Below are positions 27,457 to 33,304 of a stretch of 64,000 nucleotides of DNA, in pieces. The stretch is taken from assembly GCA_030753015.1 (NCBI GenBank), contig JASMDC010000010.1:32099-96098 (forward strand), read 5' to 3'. Below the pieces are notes generated by a model. That model had not been told where the DNA came from. It worked only from the letters and a program-made list of their open reading frames with translations, and did not search any database. Made by a program: the position numbers and the translations under genes. This DNA comes from Candidatus Undinarchaeales archaeon. Its GTDB lineage: Archaea; SpSt-1190; JASMDC01. Each line of letters opens with the position of its first letter. The first letter of the stretch is position 1.

Positions 27457-29247
27457 ATGGAGATCATCGATGAGCTCGAAGAGCTCGTGTTCCTCGAGAA
27501 CCCACGTATCCTGGTGACCGAGTGGATCCCGTGCGGGAGGAACCAGATCCTATCGCTCACGGACGGGCTCGAAGCTGTGAAGGAGGTCAATGATTCCCTC
27601 TACACGACGACGATGGACGTCCCCAACAGGCTCCACACACTGGTGACGGGGCCTGTCCTCACCAAGCTCCAGATGCAGGACCACGATCCTGCGAGCTACA
27701 TACGCTTCCATGCCAAGGTGTTCTACCCCGAGACCGTGCACCAGGTGGAGGAGTTCGGAGTGCACGTGGACTGGACCGGGCGCATCATCTACGGTCTGAT
27801 CCTGGAGCAGGTCGAGAAGCGCAAGAAGCGACAATCACTGGACCACATGTCTCGGGTCGTGGCCGACATCGTGCTCGACACGTCAACGATGATCGAGACC
27901 ATGCTCTCGGTGTTCCAGCGGGACGTCCTTGATACGGTGTTCTTCGAGAACCCCAACGAACGGAACAAGTTCGTGACAATCATCGCGGAGCGGATGACGC
28001 CCAAACGCAAGTCCCCCGCGGACTACCTGACCGAACGGCGCCTCAAGGGCGAGATCAACCAGGTCATCGAGAACGTGCACAAGGCAGAATCCCTGAGCGA
28101 TGGCGAAGCCGTCTTCCTGGGGACCAAGGGCATAATCCTGGTGTCCCCGGAACCGACGAGGTACGAGGAGGTGCTCTCGCTGTTCAACGGCCTCCAGGCC
28201 CTCGACATATTCCAGCGTAACATCCACGCACGGGTGGGTGCGCTCTGGGACGAGATGCGCGAGACGCGTCGTCTCACGGAGGATGTCTCCGAGCTCGACA
28301 TCCAGCGTGTGTCGGAGGCACAGCACTCGCTCTCCCAGATGACCGACCAGCTCCTGGCCATCGGGGAATGTCTGCGGTACATGGAGGACGCGTTGGAGGC
28401 GCTCAGTAGCGAGTGGAGGGAGCTGCGGGAGCGACGGGCCGCAGAGATAGTCCACCCGGGCGTCTCGCGTCTGCTTAGCCTGCTCGACATCGGCAATACG
28501 CTCGATCTCACCGGACACCGGACACGTGGTATCGGCCGCACCCTCGTGGGTCTCCAGAAGGAGGTGAGCGGCGTGAAGGAGCTGGCCTCAACCATCGGCG
28601 AGCGTCAGATGCGCCACCTTAACGAGAACCTCCAGGAGAACATCGTCCAGATGGAGACTATGAGCCGCTCGTCCCAGCGCACCAGCGTGGCCATCAACAT
28701 GCTCCAGCTCATCCTCGCGGGCTCACTGGCCTTCGACATACTCAAGACGCTCTCGGGCGATTACGAGAACACGGTGTTCAGCTCCGTCGCCAGTGAGAAC
28801 CCGGTGGCATGGCTCGGGCTCACGGTGCTGGTGTGGGTCGGTCTGGCATCCATCTTCTTCAACATCATCCGACCCATCGAGAAACGACGGGAGAAAGGGC
28901 TGCATGCTCGCGTGAAGCTCAACGCACCATATGACAATGATGCGCTCAAGTCGTTCCTCAGCACCCGGGAGATGCTCGTTCAGGAGTCGACATGGGACCT
29001 CCATCACCACGTGTTCAGACGATCGTGGAGCGAGCGGGGCGAGGGTTGGCGGAACAACGAGGTGACCATCCAGATCGATTACGACGAGCTCACAGGGCTC
29101 TTCCGGGACCTCGTCGTGAGCATACCCGCGCCCCAGTACATCGATGAGAACGACGCGATCCAGATAGCACTGCTGGACCTGGTCACTGCCGATGTGCTGG
29201 AGCACAGGACGCTGGACGCCTTCCGGGAATTATCGGGTCACGAATGA
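27457..29247 (+). CDS. Uncharacterised membrane protein with CorA-like topology (large soluble domain, long helices, 2 TM, C-terminal domain)
   Basis: GGTGA RBS; 596 aa; coiled-coil stalk followed by two hydrophobic helices; no GMN motif. Confidence 0.7.
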   Translation: MEIIDELEELVFLENPRILVTEWIPCGRNQILSLTDGLEAVKEVNDSLYTTTMDVPNRLHTLVTGPVLTKLQMQDHDPASYIRFHAKVFYPETVHQVEEFGVHVDWTGRIIYGLILEQVEKRKKRQSLDHMSRVVADIVLDTSTMIETMLSVFQRDVLDTVFFENPNERNKFVTIIAERMTPKRKSPADYLTERRLKGEINQVIENVHKAESLSDGEAVFLGTKGIILVSPEPTRYEEVLSLFNGLQALDIFQRNIHARVGALWDEMRETRRLTEDVSELDIQRVSEAQHSLSQMTDQLLAIGECLRYMEDALEALSSEWRELRERRAAEIVHPGVSRLLSLLDIGNTLDLTGHRTRGIGRTLVGLQKEVSGVKELASTIGERQMRHLNENLQENIVQMETMSRSSQRTSVAINMLQLILAGSLAFDILKTLSGDYENTVFSSVASENPVAWLGLTVLVWVGLASIFFNIIRPIEKRREKGLHARVKLNAPYDNDALKSFLSTREMLVQESTWDLHHHVFRRSWSERGEGWRNNEVTIQIDYDELTGLFRDLVVSIPAPQYIDENDAIQIALLDLVTADVLEHRTLDAFRELSGHE

Positions 29248-29520
29248 TCGTGAGCTCGACCGGCGGTCCTTTTCTCCGGACGCAGCGTGCTTGCCGCTTC
29301 CTCTGCGGTCATCTCGTGGCGCCAGACGGCGGCGAGCAGTTCTTGGACGCTAATGTCCGCGGTCTTCGACTGATGCGCCCCTTCGCGCTTTCGGGGCGTT
29401 CGCTCCTGTGACCTTCTCTTCTCCGGGTCCTTGCTGAGGTAAACGGCCGACCACCGTGAGCCCTTTCGATGAAGCCTTCCCTGTTCTATCAGCGTGGTGA
29501 GGGTGGTGCTGGCGCGGAGG
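29238..29520 (-). pseudogene. Remnant of an orfA-like gene
   Basis: LTTLIEQGRLHRKGSRWSAVYLSKDPEKRRSQ aligns by eye with OrfA LSSCVGKGRLYREGARKSAVYYSMNSRKRRVQ; no intact N-terminus. Confidence 0.65.
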
Positions 29521-29602
29521 CAGGAGAGGATGGGTCCCCTGGTTATGCGCTCGGGTCTTATTATGATATAGTAAGCAGTTAAAATAATAATACGCCATAG
29601 CG

Positions 29603-31531
29603 TCAAGAATCGGTTGGGGCCAGAGCCATCTGGCCTGCCAATAGCGGTCGATTGAGATGTGAAATAATTATGTGTGATTCAACATCCTTGAGCACCCTTC
29701 TACAGACTTCCTTGAACGTCTCGAACTCACCCTCCCCCCTAGCCCTCGTGACGTCGTATCTGCACCGTGCATCCTTGAACTCTGCTGTCAGCCTGTCCAC
29801 TTCGTCCTTCGGGATGGTACCGAGCTCCTCGGGCATGCGATCGATCGAGCCGAACATAGTCTTCACGTACTCGTCGGAGTGGAGGTTCTGGACGAGGCAC
29901 AGGAGCACCCCGTATCTGTTCAACTCGTAACCGGTGTCCTTCCTTCCCGTCCGCTTCCTGATGCCGGTCTTGACCCGTCCGAACCTGGTATCGAGAAGGC
30001 TTACAGCCCGCGGCACGGCAATGTTCTTCGTCTTCCCGTCCACGTTCACGGTGATGTTCGGCACCACGAGACCTTTCCAGTGCTTCTTGATGTGATAAAG
30101 AACGACCTCTTCCTCGGGAGTGATGGTACGCTCCTTCCTGACTTTCTCGAGCCTGTCCCTGAGCGCCGCCAGCTCACGTTCCATCACCGTCGCCTCCTCG
30201 TCCGACACGAGGAGCTGGTCCCGGGGTATGTCGCCCTTGTCCTCGCTCATCCTGAGGACCCCTCTCAGCTCAGAGAAGAGCTCGTAGGCGTCCGCAAGCC
30301 GTCGTCCTAGTGTGTCAGCCGACCTGCTCTCCCTGCTGTTGAATGGGCGCTCGACGATCCTGCGCACCGTCTCGATGTCCCCCGTGTCGAGTCCTGCCCG
30401 CTCCGCCGTCCGTGCGATCATCGATGCGGCCCCCTGCGCCTGCCGGCATCTTCGGTAGAGGTCCGCCCAGGGAATGCTGTAGGGGAACCGGAGCCCGTGC
30501 GCGTCCTCACGGTAGTTGAGGATCCACGACACGAGGTGATAGGTCTCTGCCAGGACGACCGTCCCGTCGTCCTCCACAGGCGCACCCCCCTTGAGGGCGC
30601 ACATGGTGGCCCTCAGGTCGACGTCCCGCTCCGCGGCCTCGGCGCCGATCTCCTTGCGCCGCCTGTCGAGGTCGGGTCTGATCCTGAGGTCGATCATGGC
30701 CTTTCTGAGCTTCATGTAGGTGTCCTCCATCACATCCTCGCCGACATCACGGAGGAAGTGATAGTTGCACTCCCGGGTCGGAAGATCCGGGAACACGCGT
30801 TCGCCCGCCTTGCGCAGTCCGAGCCCCATGTCCCTGACGAAGGCGAGCGGCGTGCCCGCCCGCTCCTTGATGTCCTCGAAGTACGGACCGATGTGCTTAC
30901 TGCTCTCCGACGGTATCGGGCCGCAGGAGAGCGCCCAGCCCGTGAGGAGGTCCATCAGCAGTAGGATGCGGTCACTGCCACCGTCGCCCGTCCCGTCCGC
31001 GCCAAGCACGTAGCCACCGTTCTTGTCCATGGCCTCCACCAGCCGGCCGAAGTGCCGGCGGTGGTACAGCTCGAACCTGGCGAGGAACTCGAGTGCGTGG
31101 TTGCTGACGGTGCCCGCCGACAACGGCACCCCATGCCGCCACCGCATCTCACCACAGGTGTCCTCCCGCGACCGATTCTCCAAATATCGCATCATACCGA
31201 CGGCGCACACCACGTCCATCGTGAACCGCGCCTTGCCGCGCGTCAGGCGACGGAGTTCGCAGGAGGTGTACTCCAGCACATGCCCGCGCTCCAGCTTGTA
31301 CTTCGGGTCGTAAAGATGGACGATCCGGGCGACGAAGCTCCCGTACCGGACCGTGTGCATCGTGCGCGTCGTGGTCTTGAGCACGCAAAGCTCCCAGAAG
31401 CGGTCGTCATCGACGAGCTCGGGCTCAGGGTAGAAGTCGATGACGGGAGGCTCGTCGCCCAGCAGCTGCGCCCGGTCGATCAGCTCGGATTCGGCAGCAC
31501 GGACCTCGGCTAGGACCCGGAGCGAAAGCCC
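29603..31531 (-). CDS. DDE transposase catalytic ORF (orfB), probably expressed by -1 frameshift from orfA
   Basis: VLGADGT, FVRDMG and CNYHFLRD (CxxH) motifs. The frame is open back to the A8G run at 31531-31539; the stop lies inside the TIR. Confidence 0.85.
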   Translation of the reverse strand, partial: GLSLRVLAEVRAAESELIDRAQLLGDEPPVIDFYPEPELVDDDRFWELCVLKTTTRTMHTVRYGSFVARIVHLYDPKYKLERGHVLEYTSCELRRLTRGKARFTMDVVCAVGMMRYLENRSREDTCGEMRWRHGVPLSAGTVSNHALEFLARFELYHRRHFGRLVEAMDKNGGYVLGADGTGDGGSDRILLLMDLLTGWALSCGPIPSESSKHIGPYFEDIKERAGTPLAFVRDMGLGLRKAGERVFPDLPTRECNYHFLRDVGEDVMEDTYMKLRKAMIDLRIRPDLDRRRKEIGAEAAERDVDLRATMCALKGGAPVEDDGTVVLAETYHLVSWILNYREDAHGLRFPYSIPWADLYRRCRQAQGAASMIARTAERAGLDTGDIETVRRIVERPFNSRESRSADTLGRRLADAYELFSELRGVLRMSEDKGDIPRDQLLVSDEEATVMERELAALRDRLEKVRKERTITPEEEVVLYHIKKHWKGLVVPNITVNVDGKTKNIAVPRAVSLLDTRFGRVKTGIRKRTGRKDTGYELNRYGVLLCLVQNLHSDEYVKTMFGSIDRMPEELGTIPKDEVDRLTAEFKDARCRYDVTRARGEGEFETFKEVCRRVLKDVESHIIISHLNRPLLAGQMALAPTDS

Positions 31532-32178
31532 TTTTTTTTGATATCGTACTCATGGATGATCCAGCGAACTCCACGCTCGTTCACATTCATTCCCTTGGAA
31601 CGCACGAGGGGCATGAGCTCCTCCACCGAGGTCGCCCGGTGCTTGATAGCGAGCGCAAGCACATCGATGATCTTCCCCTTCGTCAGGCCCGGCGGACGGC
31701 CAACCCGCGTCCTGAGTTCGGAGCCGCGTCTCTTCATCTGCACACGCCGTTTCCGGCTATTCATGCTGTAGTAGACGGCCGACTTACGGGCGCCCTCGCG
31801 ATAGAGCCGCCCTTTTCCCACACACGAGGACAGGTGGTGATGGATGTTGTCGTGGAGGCGCTGTTTGAGCTCCTTCGCTGTGACTCCTGCGTCGCTGTTC
31901 TCGATGAAGTGGACGATGGTCTCGGAGAGGTTGCCCCAGCGGGAAAAGCGAACTCCCTGGTACTCCCAGAGGTCATGCTCGTCCCATTCAGGGATGTCCG
32001 GCAGCGTGAGCACGCTGCCGTTCCGGTTGAAGCTCGTCAGATAACCTGTGCCCTCGAGCTTCCTCCAGATCGTGCCTTTCGAGCAGTCGAAATGCTCAGC
32101 CAGCTGTGACGCCAGGAGCACCTTGTGATCCCGTAAAAAGGCGATGACATCGTCAGCGGAGATCCGCTCTTTAATCAT
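31510..32178 (-). CDS. IS orfA, multi-HTH DNA-binding protein
   Basis: N-terminal HTH (ASQLAEHFDCSKGTIWRKL), basic composition, ends IKKKG at the slippery site. Confidence 0.8.
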   Translation of the reverse strand: MIKERISADDVIAFLRDHKVLLASQLAEHFDCSKGTIWRKLEGTGYLTSFNRNGSVLTLPDIPEWDEHDLWEYQGVRFSRWGNLSETIVHFIENSDAGVTAKELKQRLHDNIHHHLSSCVGKGRLYREGARKSAVYYSMNSRKRRVQMKRRGSELRTRVGRPPGLTKGKIIDVLALAIKHRATSVEELMPLVRSKGMNVNERGVRWIIHEYDIKKKGFRSGS

Positions 32179-32184
32179 ACTTTT

Positions 32185-32229
32185 AAGTAAGCATATATCC
32201 TTAAATATATTTTCTTTTTATGCTTACTT
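32185..32229. promoter_or_regulatory. Putative orfA operator: 11-bp inverted repeat around an AT-rich promoter
   Basis: AAGTAAGCATA (32185-32195) and TATGCTTACTT (32219-32229), starting 6 nt upstream of the orfA ATG. Confidence 0.6.
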
Positions 32230-32387
32230 TTATGTATCTAGTGCGGCATTTGCCAACAACGTATCAATCTCAGAATTAGTCCGATTACTTCACTACCGTC
32301 AACCGATTCTTGACGCTATGGATAATACGTTTCCAAACTGATTACTATATCATTATAAATCAATCAACACCCTGGACGCCCGAAATG

Positions 32388-32415
32388 ACGCCGTATAATA
32401 TGCATTATTGCGGCG
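32388..32415. other. dif-like 11-6-11 dyad
   Basis: ACGCCGTATAA-TATGCA-TTATTGCGGCG has the ATAA-N6-TTAT core of Xer-type sites. Confidence 0.4.
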
Positions 32416-32556
32416 TGGGCCGATCGGGGTAATTCGGACTCACAAATGGAGGTCATCTGGGGCTATAGGGGCGATAACTTATGTGTGCCTCTTACATTTA
32501 TTTGGAGGAAAAAGCGACGTCGCATAACCCCCTGTTATCAGAAGGCGGCTCGTCGT

Positions 32557-32808
32557 TTATTTATAGACCTTCTCTCGATGTCTGATCTTGAGTATGAGTA
32601 CTCCGTCATTGGTCTTCGTGTAGATCACACGATACTTGCCGACGACAAACTTGAACAAGCCTTTGAATTGGCCATGAAGGGGCTTGCCGCTGTTGGGGTC
32701 TTCGCTCAACGCTTTCTCAAGTGAATCAAGGACTCTCTTGGCAGCTTTCTTATCGATGTGTTTCAGGTCCTTGAAGACCGATGCCTTATACTCGATCTTA
32801 GAGGCCAA
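32557..32808 (-). CDS. RelE/ParE-family toxin
   Basis: 83 aa, basic; GKPLHGQFKGLFKFVVGKYRVIY...IRHREKVYK. Confidence 0.9.
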   Translation of the reverse strand: MASKIEYKASVFKDLKHIDKKAAKRVLDSLEKALSEDPNSGKPLHGQFKGLFKFVVGKYRVIYTKTNDGVLILKIRHREKVYK

Positions 32809-33016
32809 GCCTTTCCCTCATCTCATCACTTGAAATGATCTCATCATCCTTGTCGCGAAGCCTATCGAGAGCGATAAGATAATCGACATATTCCTGGAGA
32901 TAGGATTCGATAGCCTTGCGTATGATAAAGGTCTTCGAGCGCTCGAGGGAGGAGGCCATGCTATCTAATTCCTCGACGATTTCATCAGGAAGTCGTATTG
33001 AAACCGTTGTGGTCAT
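32798..33016 (-). CDS. Ribbon-helix-helix antitoxin (RelB/CopG-like)
   Basis: TVSIRLPDEIVEELDSMASSLERSKTFIIRKAIESYL with acidic C-terminus; overlaps the toxin start. Confidence 0.9.
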   Translation of the reverse strand: MTTTVSIRLPDEIVEELDSMASSLERSKTFIIRKAIESYLQEYVDYLIALDRLRDKDDEIISSDEMRERLGL

Positions 33017-33027
33017 GACACTCACTA

Positions 33028-33048
33028 TGTATTACAATGCATTACAAG
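33028..33048. promoter_or_regulatory. Putative TA operator
   Basis: TGTATTACA near-palindrome with a tandem ATTACAA repeat directly upstream of the antitoxin. Confidence 0.5.
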
Positions 33049-33304
33049 TATATCAATGTATCGCAATTAATCCTCATCACGCCAGTATACCGCTTTCTGA
33101 TAACTAATGCATATGCGAACCCCGGGTGCGCATAATCTCCTGCTGGGGGAGGGTATATGACATATGGCGCATATCCCTCACTCTATCTGCATTCTTCTTT
33201 CGGTAGTTATGTTCGCAGATGGATCTTTGATATCGCCCCTAAAGCCTCAGGATGGGCGAAATGGAGGTCATGGAATGAATCGGGTCACGAATGATCGTGA
33301 GGAC

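What the first reader, a model, noticed from the sequence alone, without database searches (positions are those of the whole stretch)
29559..32357. IS inserted at the exact centre of a dyad that mirrors its own putative operator: possible protein-guided target selection
Seen: removing the IS and one TSD copy rebuilds an empty site TATTATGATATAGTAAGCAGTT-AAAATA-[ATAATACG]-TTTCCA-AACTGATTACTATATCATTATA. Its 22-bp arms are inverted repeats (20/22), and the 8-bp TSD is perfectly centred. The arm core (AGTAAGCA...TGATTACT, 26 nt apart) recurs inside the element just upstream of orfA (AGTAAGCA...TGCTTACT, 27 nt apart). Inference: the OrfA HTH domains, fused to the transposase by frameshift, bind this dyad both to autoregulate and to direct insertion. 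That would make this a sequence-specific DDE transposon with a long protein-read target.
Basis: partly seen in the sequence, partly recalled or inferred. Interest (0 to 1): 0.9.

Follow-up and report, generated by a model that had tools for sequence, protein, structure and literature searches.

The report
Archaeal IS landing beside kin operator sites
A 2.7-kb jumping gene in a marine archaeon sits inside a repeated palindromic control site that belongs to stray relatives of its own regulator gene, and its other visible copies sit at almost the same distance from such sites, which suggests that it chooses where to land.

Summary
An IS (window 29595-32321, perfect 22-bp IRs, 8-bp TSD) splits a dyad with 20/22 matching arms, and the 8-nt arm core recurs as a dyad upstream of orfA.

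The dyad is not a one-off. It is the promoter-proximal palindrome of a family of orfA paralogs. About 10 copies exist in this genome, and more exist in a sister species where the transposase was not found. The resemblance to the IS's own operator is therefore homology, and the dyads are pre-existing targets.

All four visible IS-flank junctions lie 14, 14, 14 and 13 nt from the end of an 18-nt half-site. They come from three loci, both orientations and two IS variants. An AT-richness null gives about 3e-6. One insertion is off-centre in a 9-bp-spacer dyad, so the rule is a fixed distance from one half-site, not the exact centre.

The orfA/orfB slip site (A6-9G) is conserved in 19 of 19 informative loci. 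OrfB is a distant IS256/MULE-like DDE enzyme. OrfA has tandem winged helices.

Distant homologous ISs show no flanking dyads (0 of 23 flanks). Protein guidance remains an inference. Verdict: real and non-random targeting, with IS30, IS911 and REP-targeting ISs as precedents. Interest is moderate.

The parts
29238..29561 (-). Truncated paralog of orfA (pseudogene-like). Its start-codon position is ATA. The N-terminal winged helix is deleted, and homology to OrfA residues about 84-147 is kept.
   Evidence: ORF list; blast of the rebuilt site against the IS; tblastn paralogs; family alignment.
29559..29580 (.). Proximal (left) arm of the target dyad. The core AGTAAGCA is at 29570-29577. In intact paralogs the start codon lies at the outer edge of this arm.
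29587..29594 (.). Target-site duplication ATAATACG, left copy.
29595..32321 (-). Insertion sequence, 2727 bp, with genes on the minus strand.
   Evidence: The metagenome contig L011 carries the same end and the same flank.
29595..29616 (.). Terminal inverted repeat at the orfB end.
   Evidence: The IR consensus is shared with the homologous elements L012-L028.
29603..31549 (-). orfB reading frame. It is listed from GTG 31384 (593 aa) and is open for 55 further codons upstream to 31549. It is a DDE-type transposase, distantly IS256/MULE-like, with invariant D130, D185, C206 and H209.
   Evidence: (open frame of 648 aa).
31531..31539 (-). A8G slippery run (ATC AAA AAA AAG in the orfA frame). A -1 shift fuses OrfA residues 1-216 to the orfB frame, giving an OrfAB of about 858 aa.
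   Evidence: conserved in 19 of 19 informative loci. In one search no indel was reported here in X1, X4 or X19; the X10 contig ends at 31539.
31510..32178 (-). orfA, 222 aa: two tandem winged-helix domains plus a C-terminal three-helix HTH.
   Evidence: (HTH_11, E 3.8e-7).
32185..32229 (.). Internal dyad (putative operator): perfect 11-nt arms AAGTAAGCATA / TATGCTTACTT around an AT-rich, TATA-like spacer. The proximal core ends 8 nt before the orfA ATG.
   Evidence: The arms are unchanged in the 83%-identical C70 copy although its spacer differs.
32300..32321 (.). Terminal inverted repeat at the orfA end.
32322..32329 (.). Target-site duplication ATAATACG, right copy.
32336..32357 (.). Distal (right) arm of the target dyad. 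The core TGATTACT is at 32339-32346.
32354..32545 (.). Conserved non-coding element of about 215 nt that accompanies the dyad in 8 copies in this genome. It is part of the repeated target unit, and its function is unknown.
   Evidence: There was no Rfam match. It is also present in the sister species.

Best explanation
An insertion sequence of an undescribed group has inserted into the spacer of the promoter-proximal dyad of a decayed orfA paralog. Its features are orfA (tandem winged-helix/HTH), a -1 slip site, orfB (a distant IS256/MULE-like DDE transposase), 22-bp IRs and an 8-bp TSD.

Such dyads form a repeat family of about 10 copies. Each has 18-nt half-sites ATGATAnAGTAAkCAGTT with spacers of 9-10 or 20-23 bp. 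The half-site core AGTAAGCA is the same as in the IS's own operator-like dyad, because orfA and the paralogs share ancestry.

The IS and a diverged sibling land preferentially beside these half-sites. The IS tip lies 13-14 nt from the end of the arm, which is 16-17 nt from the core, and either orientation occurs.

The most likely mechanism is inferred, not shown. The OrfA-derived N-terminal DNA-binding module of the OrfAB fusion (or OrfA in the transpososome) binds the AGTAAkCA half-site. It does so on the IS for autoregulation and on the target. It thereby places the DDE active sites about one and a half helical turns away. Centring in the window copy follows from its 20-bp spacer, which puts both half-sites in register.
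For: Shown:
- IS anatomy and TSD.
- The flanks belong to a repeat family. C62 holds an uninterrupted copy, and further copies lie in C73 (two), C29 (two), C95, C44 and C11:25491.
- The left flank encodes an orfA paralog whose start lies in the arm.
- Dyads also occur in the sister species G001, where OrfB was not found with this query.
- All 4 IS-flank junctions available in the assembly lie 14, 14, 14 and 13 nt from an arm. These are window left, window right, C70 and C44. They show opposite IS orientations, different 13-14-nt joining sequences, and 83% versus 100% identical IS ends, so they are independent events.
- An AT-rich null is far exceeded. The genome has 34,955 positions with at least 65% AT in 40 bp, against roughly 500 bp of dyads. 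That gives about 3e-6 for 3 of 3 loci (my arithmetic).
- The slip site is conserved in 19 of 19 informative loci.
- Every family member carries its own dyad or repeat upstream of orfA.
- The operator arms are unchanged between the window copy and the 83%-identical C70 copy.
- The OrfA model has pLDDT 88, with two winged helices and a further HTH.
- For OrfB, the top Foldseek hits are the ISCth4 (IS256 family) and Hermes transposases at E about 7e-5. NCBIfam IS256 gives E 1.4e-5. The Atlas neighbours carry Transposase_mut/MULE.
- The stand-alone paralogs group next to the window OrfA inside the IS-OrfA tree.
Against: - No binding or transposition data exist.
- There are only three loci, all from one metagenome-assembled genome (5% contamination).
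- The second ends of the C70 and C44 copies are not assembled, so their TSDs are unverified.
- Operator and target arms share only the 8-nt core, not the remaining 10 positions of the 18-nt arm.
- 0 of 23 flanks of 15 distant homologous elements carry the core or a match to their own operator above shuffle level. 0 of 8 rebuilt sites are more symmetric than shuffles. The two homologs with clear TSDs sit in plain AT-rich DNA.
- No empty-site allele was found in four metagenome runs.
- The tree support for paralogs being sister to the window OrfA is only 85/77.
Confidence: 0.55

Rival explanations
1. The IS is tethered by a resident protein and does not read the DNA directly. A host-encoded OrfA paralog, such as the intact C11:24911-25489 gene product, occupies the dyads. 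OrfA or OrfAB is recruited by forming mixed oligomers with it, and this sets the insertion distance.
For: - The paralogs are 38-49% identical to OrfA over most of its length, so mixed oligomers are conceivable.
- The full 18-nt arms are conserved across 18 half-sites, yet only 8 nt match the IS operator. A paralog protein would read the whole arm more naturally.
- The dyads exist in a sister species where OrfB was not found.
Against: - Most dyad-linked paralogs are truncated.
- The one intact dyad-linked gene (C11b) has the most divergent arms of the family.
- No interaction was tested.
- The IS operator core is identical to the proximal target core in most copies.
Confidence: 0.15
2. There is no sequence reading. 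The transposase prefers AT-rich, bent or cruciform-prone DNA, and insertions survive only in neutral places such as promoters of dead genes. The dyads are simply the best such sites in a 60% GC genome.
For: - The dyads are 63-81% AT in a 60% GC genome.
- The TSDs of distant homologs are AT-rich (TTTTTATT in L013, TAAAAAAG in L025).
- Long inverted repeats can extrude.
- The dyad-linked paralogs are mostly decayed, so insertions there cost little.
Against: - About 35,000 positions are equally AT-rich, yet 3 of 3 loci are dyads.
- The constant 13-14 nt offset from a half-site holds in dyads with both 9-bp and 20-bp spacers. That fits a ruler from a bound half-site better than a loop or bend.
- The inferred C44 and C70 duplications (CTACACGG, CCAAACTG) are not AT-rich.
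Confidence: 0.15
3. The association comes from history, not choice. One ancestral insertion was copied along with the repeat unit or spread among units by homologous recombination, or the contig-end junctions are assembly artefacts.
For: - The units are repeats 70-85% alike, so recombination among them is possible.
- Two of the three loci are contig ends.
- Runs X4 and X10 hold an IS-left-end junction whose first 55 nt resemble the window's right flank and then continue into a different outer flank.
Against: - The junctions differ in IS orientation, in the 13-14 nt next to the tip, and in spacer class.
- The C70 flank is letter for letter the C62-type uninterrupted dyad up to the tip.
- All junctions fall exactly at the IR tip.
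- The window copy has a clean 8-bp TSD.
Confidence: 0.05

Closest known systems
IS30 (dual target specificity: nearly palindromic hot spots and its own IRs)
   Same: IS30 is a DDE IS with preferred, nearly palindromic non-IR targets, and it also inserts next to sequences its transposase binds (passages read in PMC9333248). Recognition by an N-terminal HTH is recalled from the IS30 literature and was not read here.
   Different: IS30 belongs to a different transposase family, makes a 2-bp staggered attack, and has a single ORF. Here the TSD is 8 bp, there are two ORFs with a slip site, and the target is the operator of paralogous genes, with insertion about 14 nt from a half-site rather than at a consensus centre. 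No experiments exist for this element.
IS911 targeted insertion next to IR-like sequences, modulated by OrfA
   Same: It has an OrfA/OrfAB pair made by -1 frameshifting on an A-run, and target choice is tied to the DNA-binding N-terminus shared by OrfA and OrfAB. I saw only titles in reference lists. The papers PMC126149 and PMC2546779 were not held, so the content is recalled.
   Different: IS911 is an IS3-family rve-type enzyme with 3-4 bp duplications, and its targets resemble its IRs. Here the target resembles the internal operator, not the IRs.
REP-targeting ISs (ISPpu9, ISPpu10, ISPsy8, ISPa11, ISRm19/22)
   Same: These ISs are found specifically inside a multicopy palindromic repeat family of the host genome (abstract of PMC1525189; abstract listing of PMC12288879).
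   Different: REPs are short extragenic hairpins unrelated to the IS's own genes, and several of those ISs are IS110-type (non-DDE). Here the palindrome is the promoter dyad of relatives of the IS's own regulator, in an archaeon.
IS256 family / MULE (ISCth4, Hermes-like architecture)
   Same: It shares an RNase-H-like DDE core with a large all-alpha insertion, an 8-bp TSD, and invariant D, D and CxxH positions. The CxxH signature is recalled.
   Different: It scores below the family HMM thresholds. It is about 200 aa longer and has a separate orfA with a slip site. IS256 is not known to me to have strong target specificity (recalled).

Membership tests
IS256 family (Pfam Transposase_mut PF00872; NCBIfam NF033543) | The transposase scores above the curated HMM cut-off. 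| tested here: not met
   Pfam gave no transposase family at E <= 0.1. NCBIfam NF033543 scored 24.2 bits against a cut-off of 150, matching only residues 158-245.
IS256 family (Pfam Transposase_mut PF00872; NCBIfam NF033543) | A DDE RNase-H-like fold with an alpha-helical insertion domain, as in ISCth4. | tested here: inconclusive
   The AF2 model has pLDDT 77. The top Foldseek hits are ISCth4 6xgx and Hermes 4d1q at E 6.9e-5, but TM is only 0.23-0.33. The nearest Atlas clusters carry PF00872 in 15-16% of members, with scores of 0.94-0.95.
IS256 family (Pfam Transposase_mut PF00872; NCBIfam NF033543) | 8-9 bp target duplication (figure recalled from ISfinder descriptions). | tested here: met
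   8 bp in the window, 8 bp in L013, and 8-10 bp in L025.
IS256 family (Pfam Transposase_mut PF00872; NCBIfam NF033543) | A single transposase ORF (recalled). | tested here: not met
   There are two ORFs with a conserved A-run overlap.
IS3-type organisation (orfA/orfB, programmed -1 frameshift) | An A-rich slippery motif in the orfA/orfB overlap, with orfB in the -1 frame. | tested here: met
   A run of at least 6 A (A6G to A9G, once A9) occurs in 19 of 20 rows. The 20th row (L016) lacks the region. Some rows are the same element seen twice (L011 is the window; L012/L013; L014/L026).
IS3-type organisation (orfA/orfB, programmed -1 frameshift) | An rve-type (PF00665) catalytic domain. | tested here: not met
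   No Pfam hit. The fold neighbours are IS256/hAT-like, and retroviral integrase cores appear only at E of about 0.07 or worse.
Target-specific IS (works like the IS30 hot-spot / REP-targeting class) | Independent insertions recur in one sequence family at a fixed position. | tested here: met
   4 of 4 junctions at 3 loci lie 13-14 nt from an 18-nt arm. The arm family is listed. The sample is small.
Target-specific IS (works like the IS30 hot-spot / REP-targeting class) | The transposase or an accessory protein binds the target sequence. | not testable with these tools
   No protein-DNA tool was available. This would need EMSA, footprinting or protein-DNA modelling.
Target-specific IS (works like the IS30 hot-spot / REP-targeting class) | The property holds across the IS family. 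| tested here: not met
   0 of 23 flanks of 15 distant homologous elements carry the core. 0 of 8 rebuilt sites exceed shuffles in symmetry.

The most novel reading that the evidence does not exclude
A DDE transposon of an undescribed IS256/MULE-related group uses its frameshift-fused tandem winged-helix module as a true sequence-specific targeting device. The module reads an AGTAAkCA half-site and integrates exactly about 14 bp away. The sites it reads are operators of orphaned or domesticated copies of its own regulator gene. The repeat units (dyad plus a 215-nt conserved element) therefore act as self-made safe-harbour landing pads that persist even in genomes without the IS.
Probability: 0.3. 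Interest if true: 0.75.

Novelty: new variant of a known kind. Interest (0 to 1): 0.55.

Why it matters
Target choice by simple DDE insertion sequences is usually loose. The few well-studied exceptions (IS30, IS911, REP-targeting ISs, Tn7) are bacterial.

This case is an archaeal IS group absent from Pfam and below NCBIfam thresholds. In it, the regulator's operator, the fused DNA-binding module and the chosen targets can all be read from sequence, and an apparent 14-bp ruler links a half-site to the integration point.

If binding is confirmed, it gives a compact natural example of HTH-directed DDE integration that could be dissected in vitro. It also shows how orphaned IS regulator genes and their operators can become landing pads that concentrate later insertions in harmless places.

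The evidence is three loci in one metagenome-assembled genome, so the case is suggestive rather than established.

Tried and rejected
- Relatives' genomes: OrfB was searched in 40 other genomes and none was found. The orthologous locus in sister species G001 holds unrelated DNA between the conserved flanks, so no natural empty site could be read. Two more loci (C62, C73) gave no clean presence/absence boundary either.
- Public collections: the genome-contig scan gave one short contig without ends (L010). The metagenome scan gave 19 loci. All those with ends were examined.
- The OrfA word search found only 3 close relatives.
- Laying contigs of 4 runs (X1, X4, X10, X19) showed no joint skipping the IS. 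The only IS-spanning 'joint' is an opposite-strand join through the 22-bp IRs in X19, which I read as a repeat artefact. Parts without cover are not used as evidence. An extra junction in X4 and X10 could not be read in full.
- Rfam on 29000-33200 gave no match at E <= 1.
- RNAalifold on the 215-nt element was weak on both strands. A conserved small ORF there was considered and dropped, because two copies carry a 1-nt deletion (judged by eye).
- I considered that the arms might be the true outer ends of a larger element. I rejected this because arms occur uninterrupted without the IS in 7 places here and in G001.
- IR-targeting, meaning arms that resemble the IRs, was rejected. Only ATAG...GTT is shared, judged by eye.
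- A recognition-helix versus half-site code across OrfA homologs showed no clear pattern.
- A profile search of PDB sequences with OrfB gave nothing meaningful (best E 0.12).
- Complex prediction was not used, because a homolog heterodimer would pass by likeness.
- Literature: three full-text searches found no report of an IS inserting into operators of paralogs of its own orfA, and none of this IS group. ISfinder could not be consulted, and supplementary files were not opened.
Full report
**1. What is at the coordinates**

- A 2727-bp element (29595-32321) is bounded by perfect 22-bp inverted repeats and by an 8-bp direct repeat, ATAATACG.
- Removing the element and one repeat copy rebuilds arm(22)-6-TSD(8)-6-arm(22). 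The arms match at 20 of 22 positions.
- The cores AGTAAGCA and TGATTACT lie 26 nt apart in the rebuilt site.
- On the minus strand the element carries orfA (32178-31510, 222 aa) and orfB (listed from 31384, 593 aa).
- A second dyad with perfect 11-nt arms (AAGTAAGCATA / TATGCTTACTT, cores 27 nt apart) lies at 32185-32229. Its proximal core ends 8 nt before the orfA ATG.

**2. The element is a real IS of a small, unnamed group**

Homologs and transposase family:
- OrfB has 15 homologs with E <= 0.001 in the 5.8-billion-protein collection, none named and none with a Pfam domain.
- Pfam gives nothing for OrfB. NCBIfam gives a sub-threshold IS256 match of 24 bits against a cut-off of 150.
- An AlphaFold model (pLDDT 77) finds the ISCth4 (IS256 family) and Hermes transposases as its best PDB neighbours, at E about 7e-5 with low TM.
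- The ESM Atlas neighbours are clusters partly annotated Transposase_mut/MULE.
- Invariant D130, D185, C206 and H209 fit the D, D, CxxH pattern that I recall for that superfamily.
- I therefore call OrfB a distant IS256/MULE-like DDE transposase, not a member of the family.

Shared features of the group:
- Nineteen metagenome loci and one genome contig encode relatives.
- Those with ends share the IR consensus xTATAGCGTCAAGAATCCGTTG.
- Where both flanks are clean they have 8-bp duplications (L013 TTTTTATT; L025).

The slip site:
- At the orfA/orfB overlap, 19 of 20 rows have a run of 6-9 A, mostly followed by G, with orfB open in the -1 frame from that point. The 20th row lacks the region.
- In the window the run is A8G (31531-31539). 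No indel was reported there in the three runs from separate studies whose contigs span it.
- A -1 shift would give an OrfAB of about 858 aa.

OrfA:
- OrfA matches HTH_11.
- It models with pLDDT 88 as two tandem winged helices plus a C-terminal three-helix unit.
- Its fold neighbours are tandem winged-helix proteins and MarR/ArsR regulators, with weak E-values.

**3. What the target dyad really is**

The flanks are a repeat family:
- A blast of the IS with 100-bp flanks, and then of the rebuilt site, against the whole genome shows that the flanks are not unique.
- C62:12635-13206 holds an uninterrupted copy spanning the insertion point. Further copies lie in C73 (two), C29 (two), C95, C44, C87, C78 and C11:24936-25548.

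The dyad is a promoter element of orfA paralogs:
- On the minus strand, the left flank encodes a truncated paralog of orfA.
- In the aligned family, the proximal arm ends one or two bases before the paralog's ATG (...CTATATCATAATG...).
- Stand-alone full-length paralogs (38-49% identical, with no transposase beside them) lie at C11:24911-25489, C22 and C57.
- The dyad is therefore the promoter-proximal palindrome of orfA-like genes. Its proximal core sits at the same distance from the start codon as in the IS.
- The shared 8-nt core is thus explained by common descent of gene plus operator, not by mimicry.

Origin of the paralogs:
- A maximum-likelihood tree of 15 OrfA-type proteins places the three stand-alone paralogs together (90/89) and next to the window OrfA (85/77), inside the IS-borne OrfAs (midpoint root; C70 and L015 left out as fragments).
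- This suggests orphaned or domesticated IS regulator genes, but the support is modest.

The dyad family:
- Eighteen half-sites give the consensus ATGATAnAGTAAkCAGTT.
- Spacers vary in sequence and fall into two length classes: 9-10 bp (four copies) and 20-23 bp (four copies, counting the rebuilt window site).
- The two classes differ by about one helical turn.
- Eight copies also carry a conserved non-coding element of about 215 nt outside the distal arm.

The dyads predate the IS:
- The organism is an archaeon; four TBP genes were found.
- The AT-rich spacers of the IS operator and of the intact C11 paralog look TATA-like about 30 nt before the ATG. This is my reading.
- Sister species G001 has such dyads too, with spacers of 20 and 10 bp, whereas OrfB was not found there with this query.
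- The dyads are therefore pre-existing targets and not part of the IS.

**4. Do other insertions sit in such dyads?**

Within this genome the assembly shows three further IS pieces at contig ends.
- C70 ends in an 83%-identical sibling. Its orfA-end tip abuts ...ATGACATAGTAAGCAGTT-AGTTTTCCAAACTG. That is letter for letter the C62-type dyad with a 9-bp spacer, running 5 nt into the distal arm.
- C44 begins with the orfB-end tip (100% identical over 75 nt) followed by 13 nt and then a distal arm and the 215-nt element.
- C78 ends in IS positions 57-137 joined to a paralog truncated at residue 57. It overlaps the start of C44 by 19 nt, so C78 and C44 are probably one locus with an IS remnant.

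Reading every flank toward the tip, the arm ends 14 nt (window left), 14 nt (window right), 14 nt (C70) and 13 nt (C44) from the tip.
- The IS orientation relative to the paralog is opposite in C70 and C44 compared with the window.
- The joining 13-14 nt are unrelated in sequence.
- These are therefore independent events.
- In C70 the insertion is not centred. The common feature is the distance from one half-site. The window's perfect centring follows from its 20-bp spacer (6 + 8 + 6).

As a null, 34,955 genome positions are at least 65% AT over 40 bp, while the dyads cover roughly 500 bp. Three of three loci by AT preference alone would be about 3e-6 (my arithmetic).

Contigs of two other metagenome runs (X4, X10) also hold an IS orfB-end tip followed by sequence at least 90% like the window's right flank, and then a different outer flank. 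I could not read that junction in full.

**5. Results against a general rule**
- For 15 distant homologous elements (33-58% OrfB identity), 0 of 23 flanks contain the AGTAAkCA core.
- 8-mers shared between a flank and that element's own IR-to-ATG region occur no more often than in shuffles.
- 0 of 8 rebuilt sites are more symmetric than their shuffles, whereas the window site exceeds all 200 of its shuffles.
- The two homologs with clear duplications sit in plain AT-rich DNA.
- Each homolog does have its own dyad or direct repeat upstream of orfA, which supports an operator role. Targeting of matching sites is seen only in this genome, where orphan operators exist.
- No empty-site allele was seen in the four runs laid, and the orthologous place in G001 holds other DNA.

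**6. Mechanism**

Shown:
- The IS, its TSD and the conserved slip site.
- The homology of the target dyad and the IS operator.
- The multicopy target family that predates the insertion.
- The constant offset at four junctions.

Inferred:
- OrfA represses its own promoter through the internal dyad.
- The same DNA-binding module, carried by OrfAB, docks on AGTAAkCA half-sites elsewhere and sets the cut about 14 bp from the arm.

Rivals:
- Tethering through a resident paralog protein.
- A structural or AT-rich preference combined with survival in neutral sites.
- Spread by recombination among units.

The offset that holds across both spacer classes, both orientations and unrelated joining sequences argues most strongly against the last two rivals. 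Nothing here separates direct reading from tethering.

**7. Comparison with known systems**
- In behaviour the closest are IS30 and the REP-targeting ISs. IS30 prefers nearly palindromic hot spots and also inserts next to its own IRs (passages of PMC9333248). The REP-targeting ISs are covered in the abstract of PMC1525189.
- IS911 targeted insertion governed by OrfA/OrfAB is also close. I know it from reference-list titles and from recall, because the papers were not held.
- In enzyme type the closest is IS256/MULE.
- The new elements are the archaeal host, the undescribed IS group, the target being operators of the IS regulator's own stray relatives, and the apparent ruler from a single half-site.
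- Three full-text searches turned up no description of this.

**8. Verdict**

- The target is homologous to the operator, not a mimic of it.
- The rule is a fixed distance from a half-site, not the centre of the dyad.
- The behaviour is not family-wide.

This is a new variant of a known kind (a target-selective IS), resting on few events in one metagenome-assembled genome. Interest is 0.55.

Noticed in passing
window 32354-32545; also G000 C29 (two), C62, C73 (two), C95, C44; G001 loci L033 and L035: A conserved non-coding element of about 215 nt always abuts the distal arm of the dyad (8 copies, roughly 70-85% alike). It contains an internal imperfect palindrome and a 12-nt direct repeat. It has no Rfam match and only weak consensus folding on either strand, so it could be a small RNA, a promoter module or the end of an unrecognised mobile unit.
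   Followed up: partly
window 29250-33089 versus G001:C17:86825-90125 (L036): The paralog remnant, dyad, IS, 215-nt element and the adjacent small gene pair form a variable island. The sister species has unrelated DNA of about 3.3 kb between the same conserved flanks.
   Followed up: partly
window 32557-32808 (-) and 32798-33025 (-): Two small overlapping ORFs look by eye like a RelE/ParE-type toxin and a ribbon-helix-helix antitoxin. In C62 the equivalent neighbour of the repeat unit is a different small gene pair. Neither pair was searched against any library.
   Followed up: no
G000 C22:74742-75419, C57:2902-3576, C11:24911-25489 (outside the window): These are stand-alone full-length orfA paralogs without a transposase. 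C22 and C57 carry a different, tight palindrome (TTACTAC..GTAGTAA) about 50 nt upstream, again with an AGTAA-type half-site.
   Followed up: partly
G000 C78:11503-12047 and C44:1-130: The end of C78 and the start of C44 overlap by 19 nt. Together they suggest a 137-bp IS left-end remnant joined to a paralog truncated at residue 57, as if a deletion had removed most of the IS, the proximal arm and the paralog's 5' end.
   Followed up: partly
G000 C44:108-947: One of the four TBP genes of the genome lies directly downstream of a 215-nt element copy.
   Followed up: no
loci L012 versus L013, and L022 versus L023: L012 and L013 share the same IS and left flank but have different right flanks. The left flank of L022 and the right flank of L023 share CATCCTTC. 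These point to IS-mediated rearrangements or chimeric metagenome contigs.
   Followed up: no
locus L024:180-250: A distant homolog of the IS lies about 25 nt downstream of what looks by eye like the 3' end of a tRNA gene. This was not checked with the tRNA tool.
   Followed up: no
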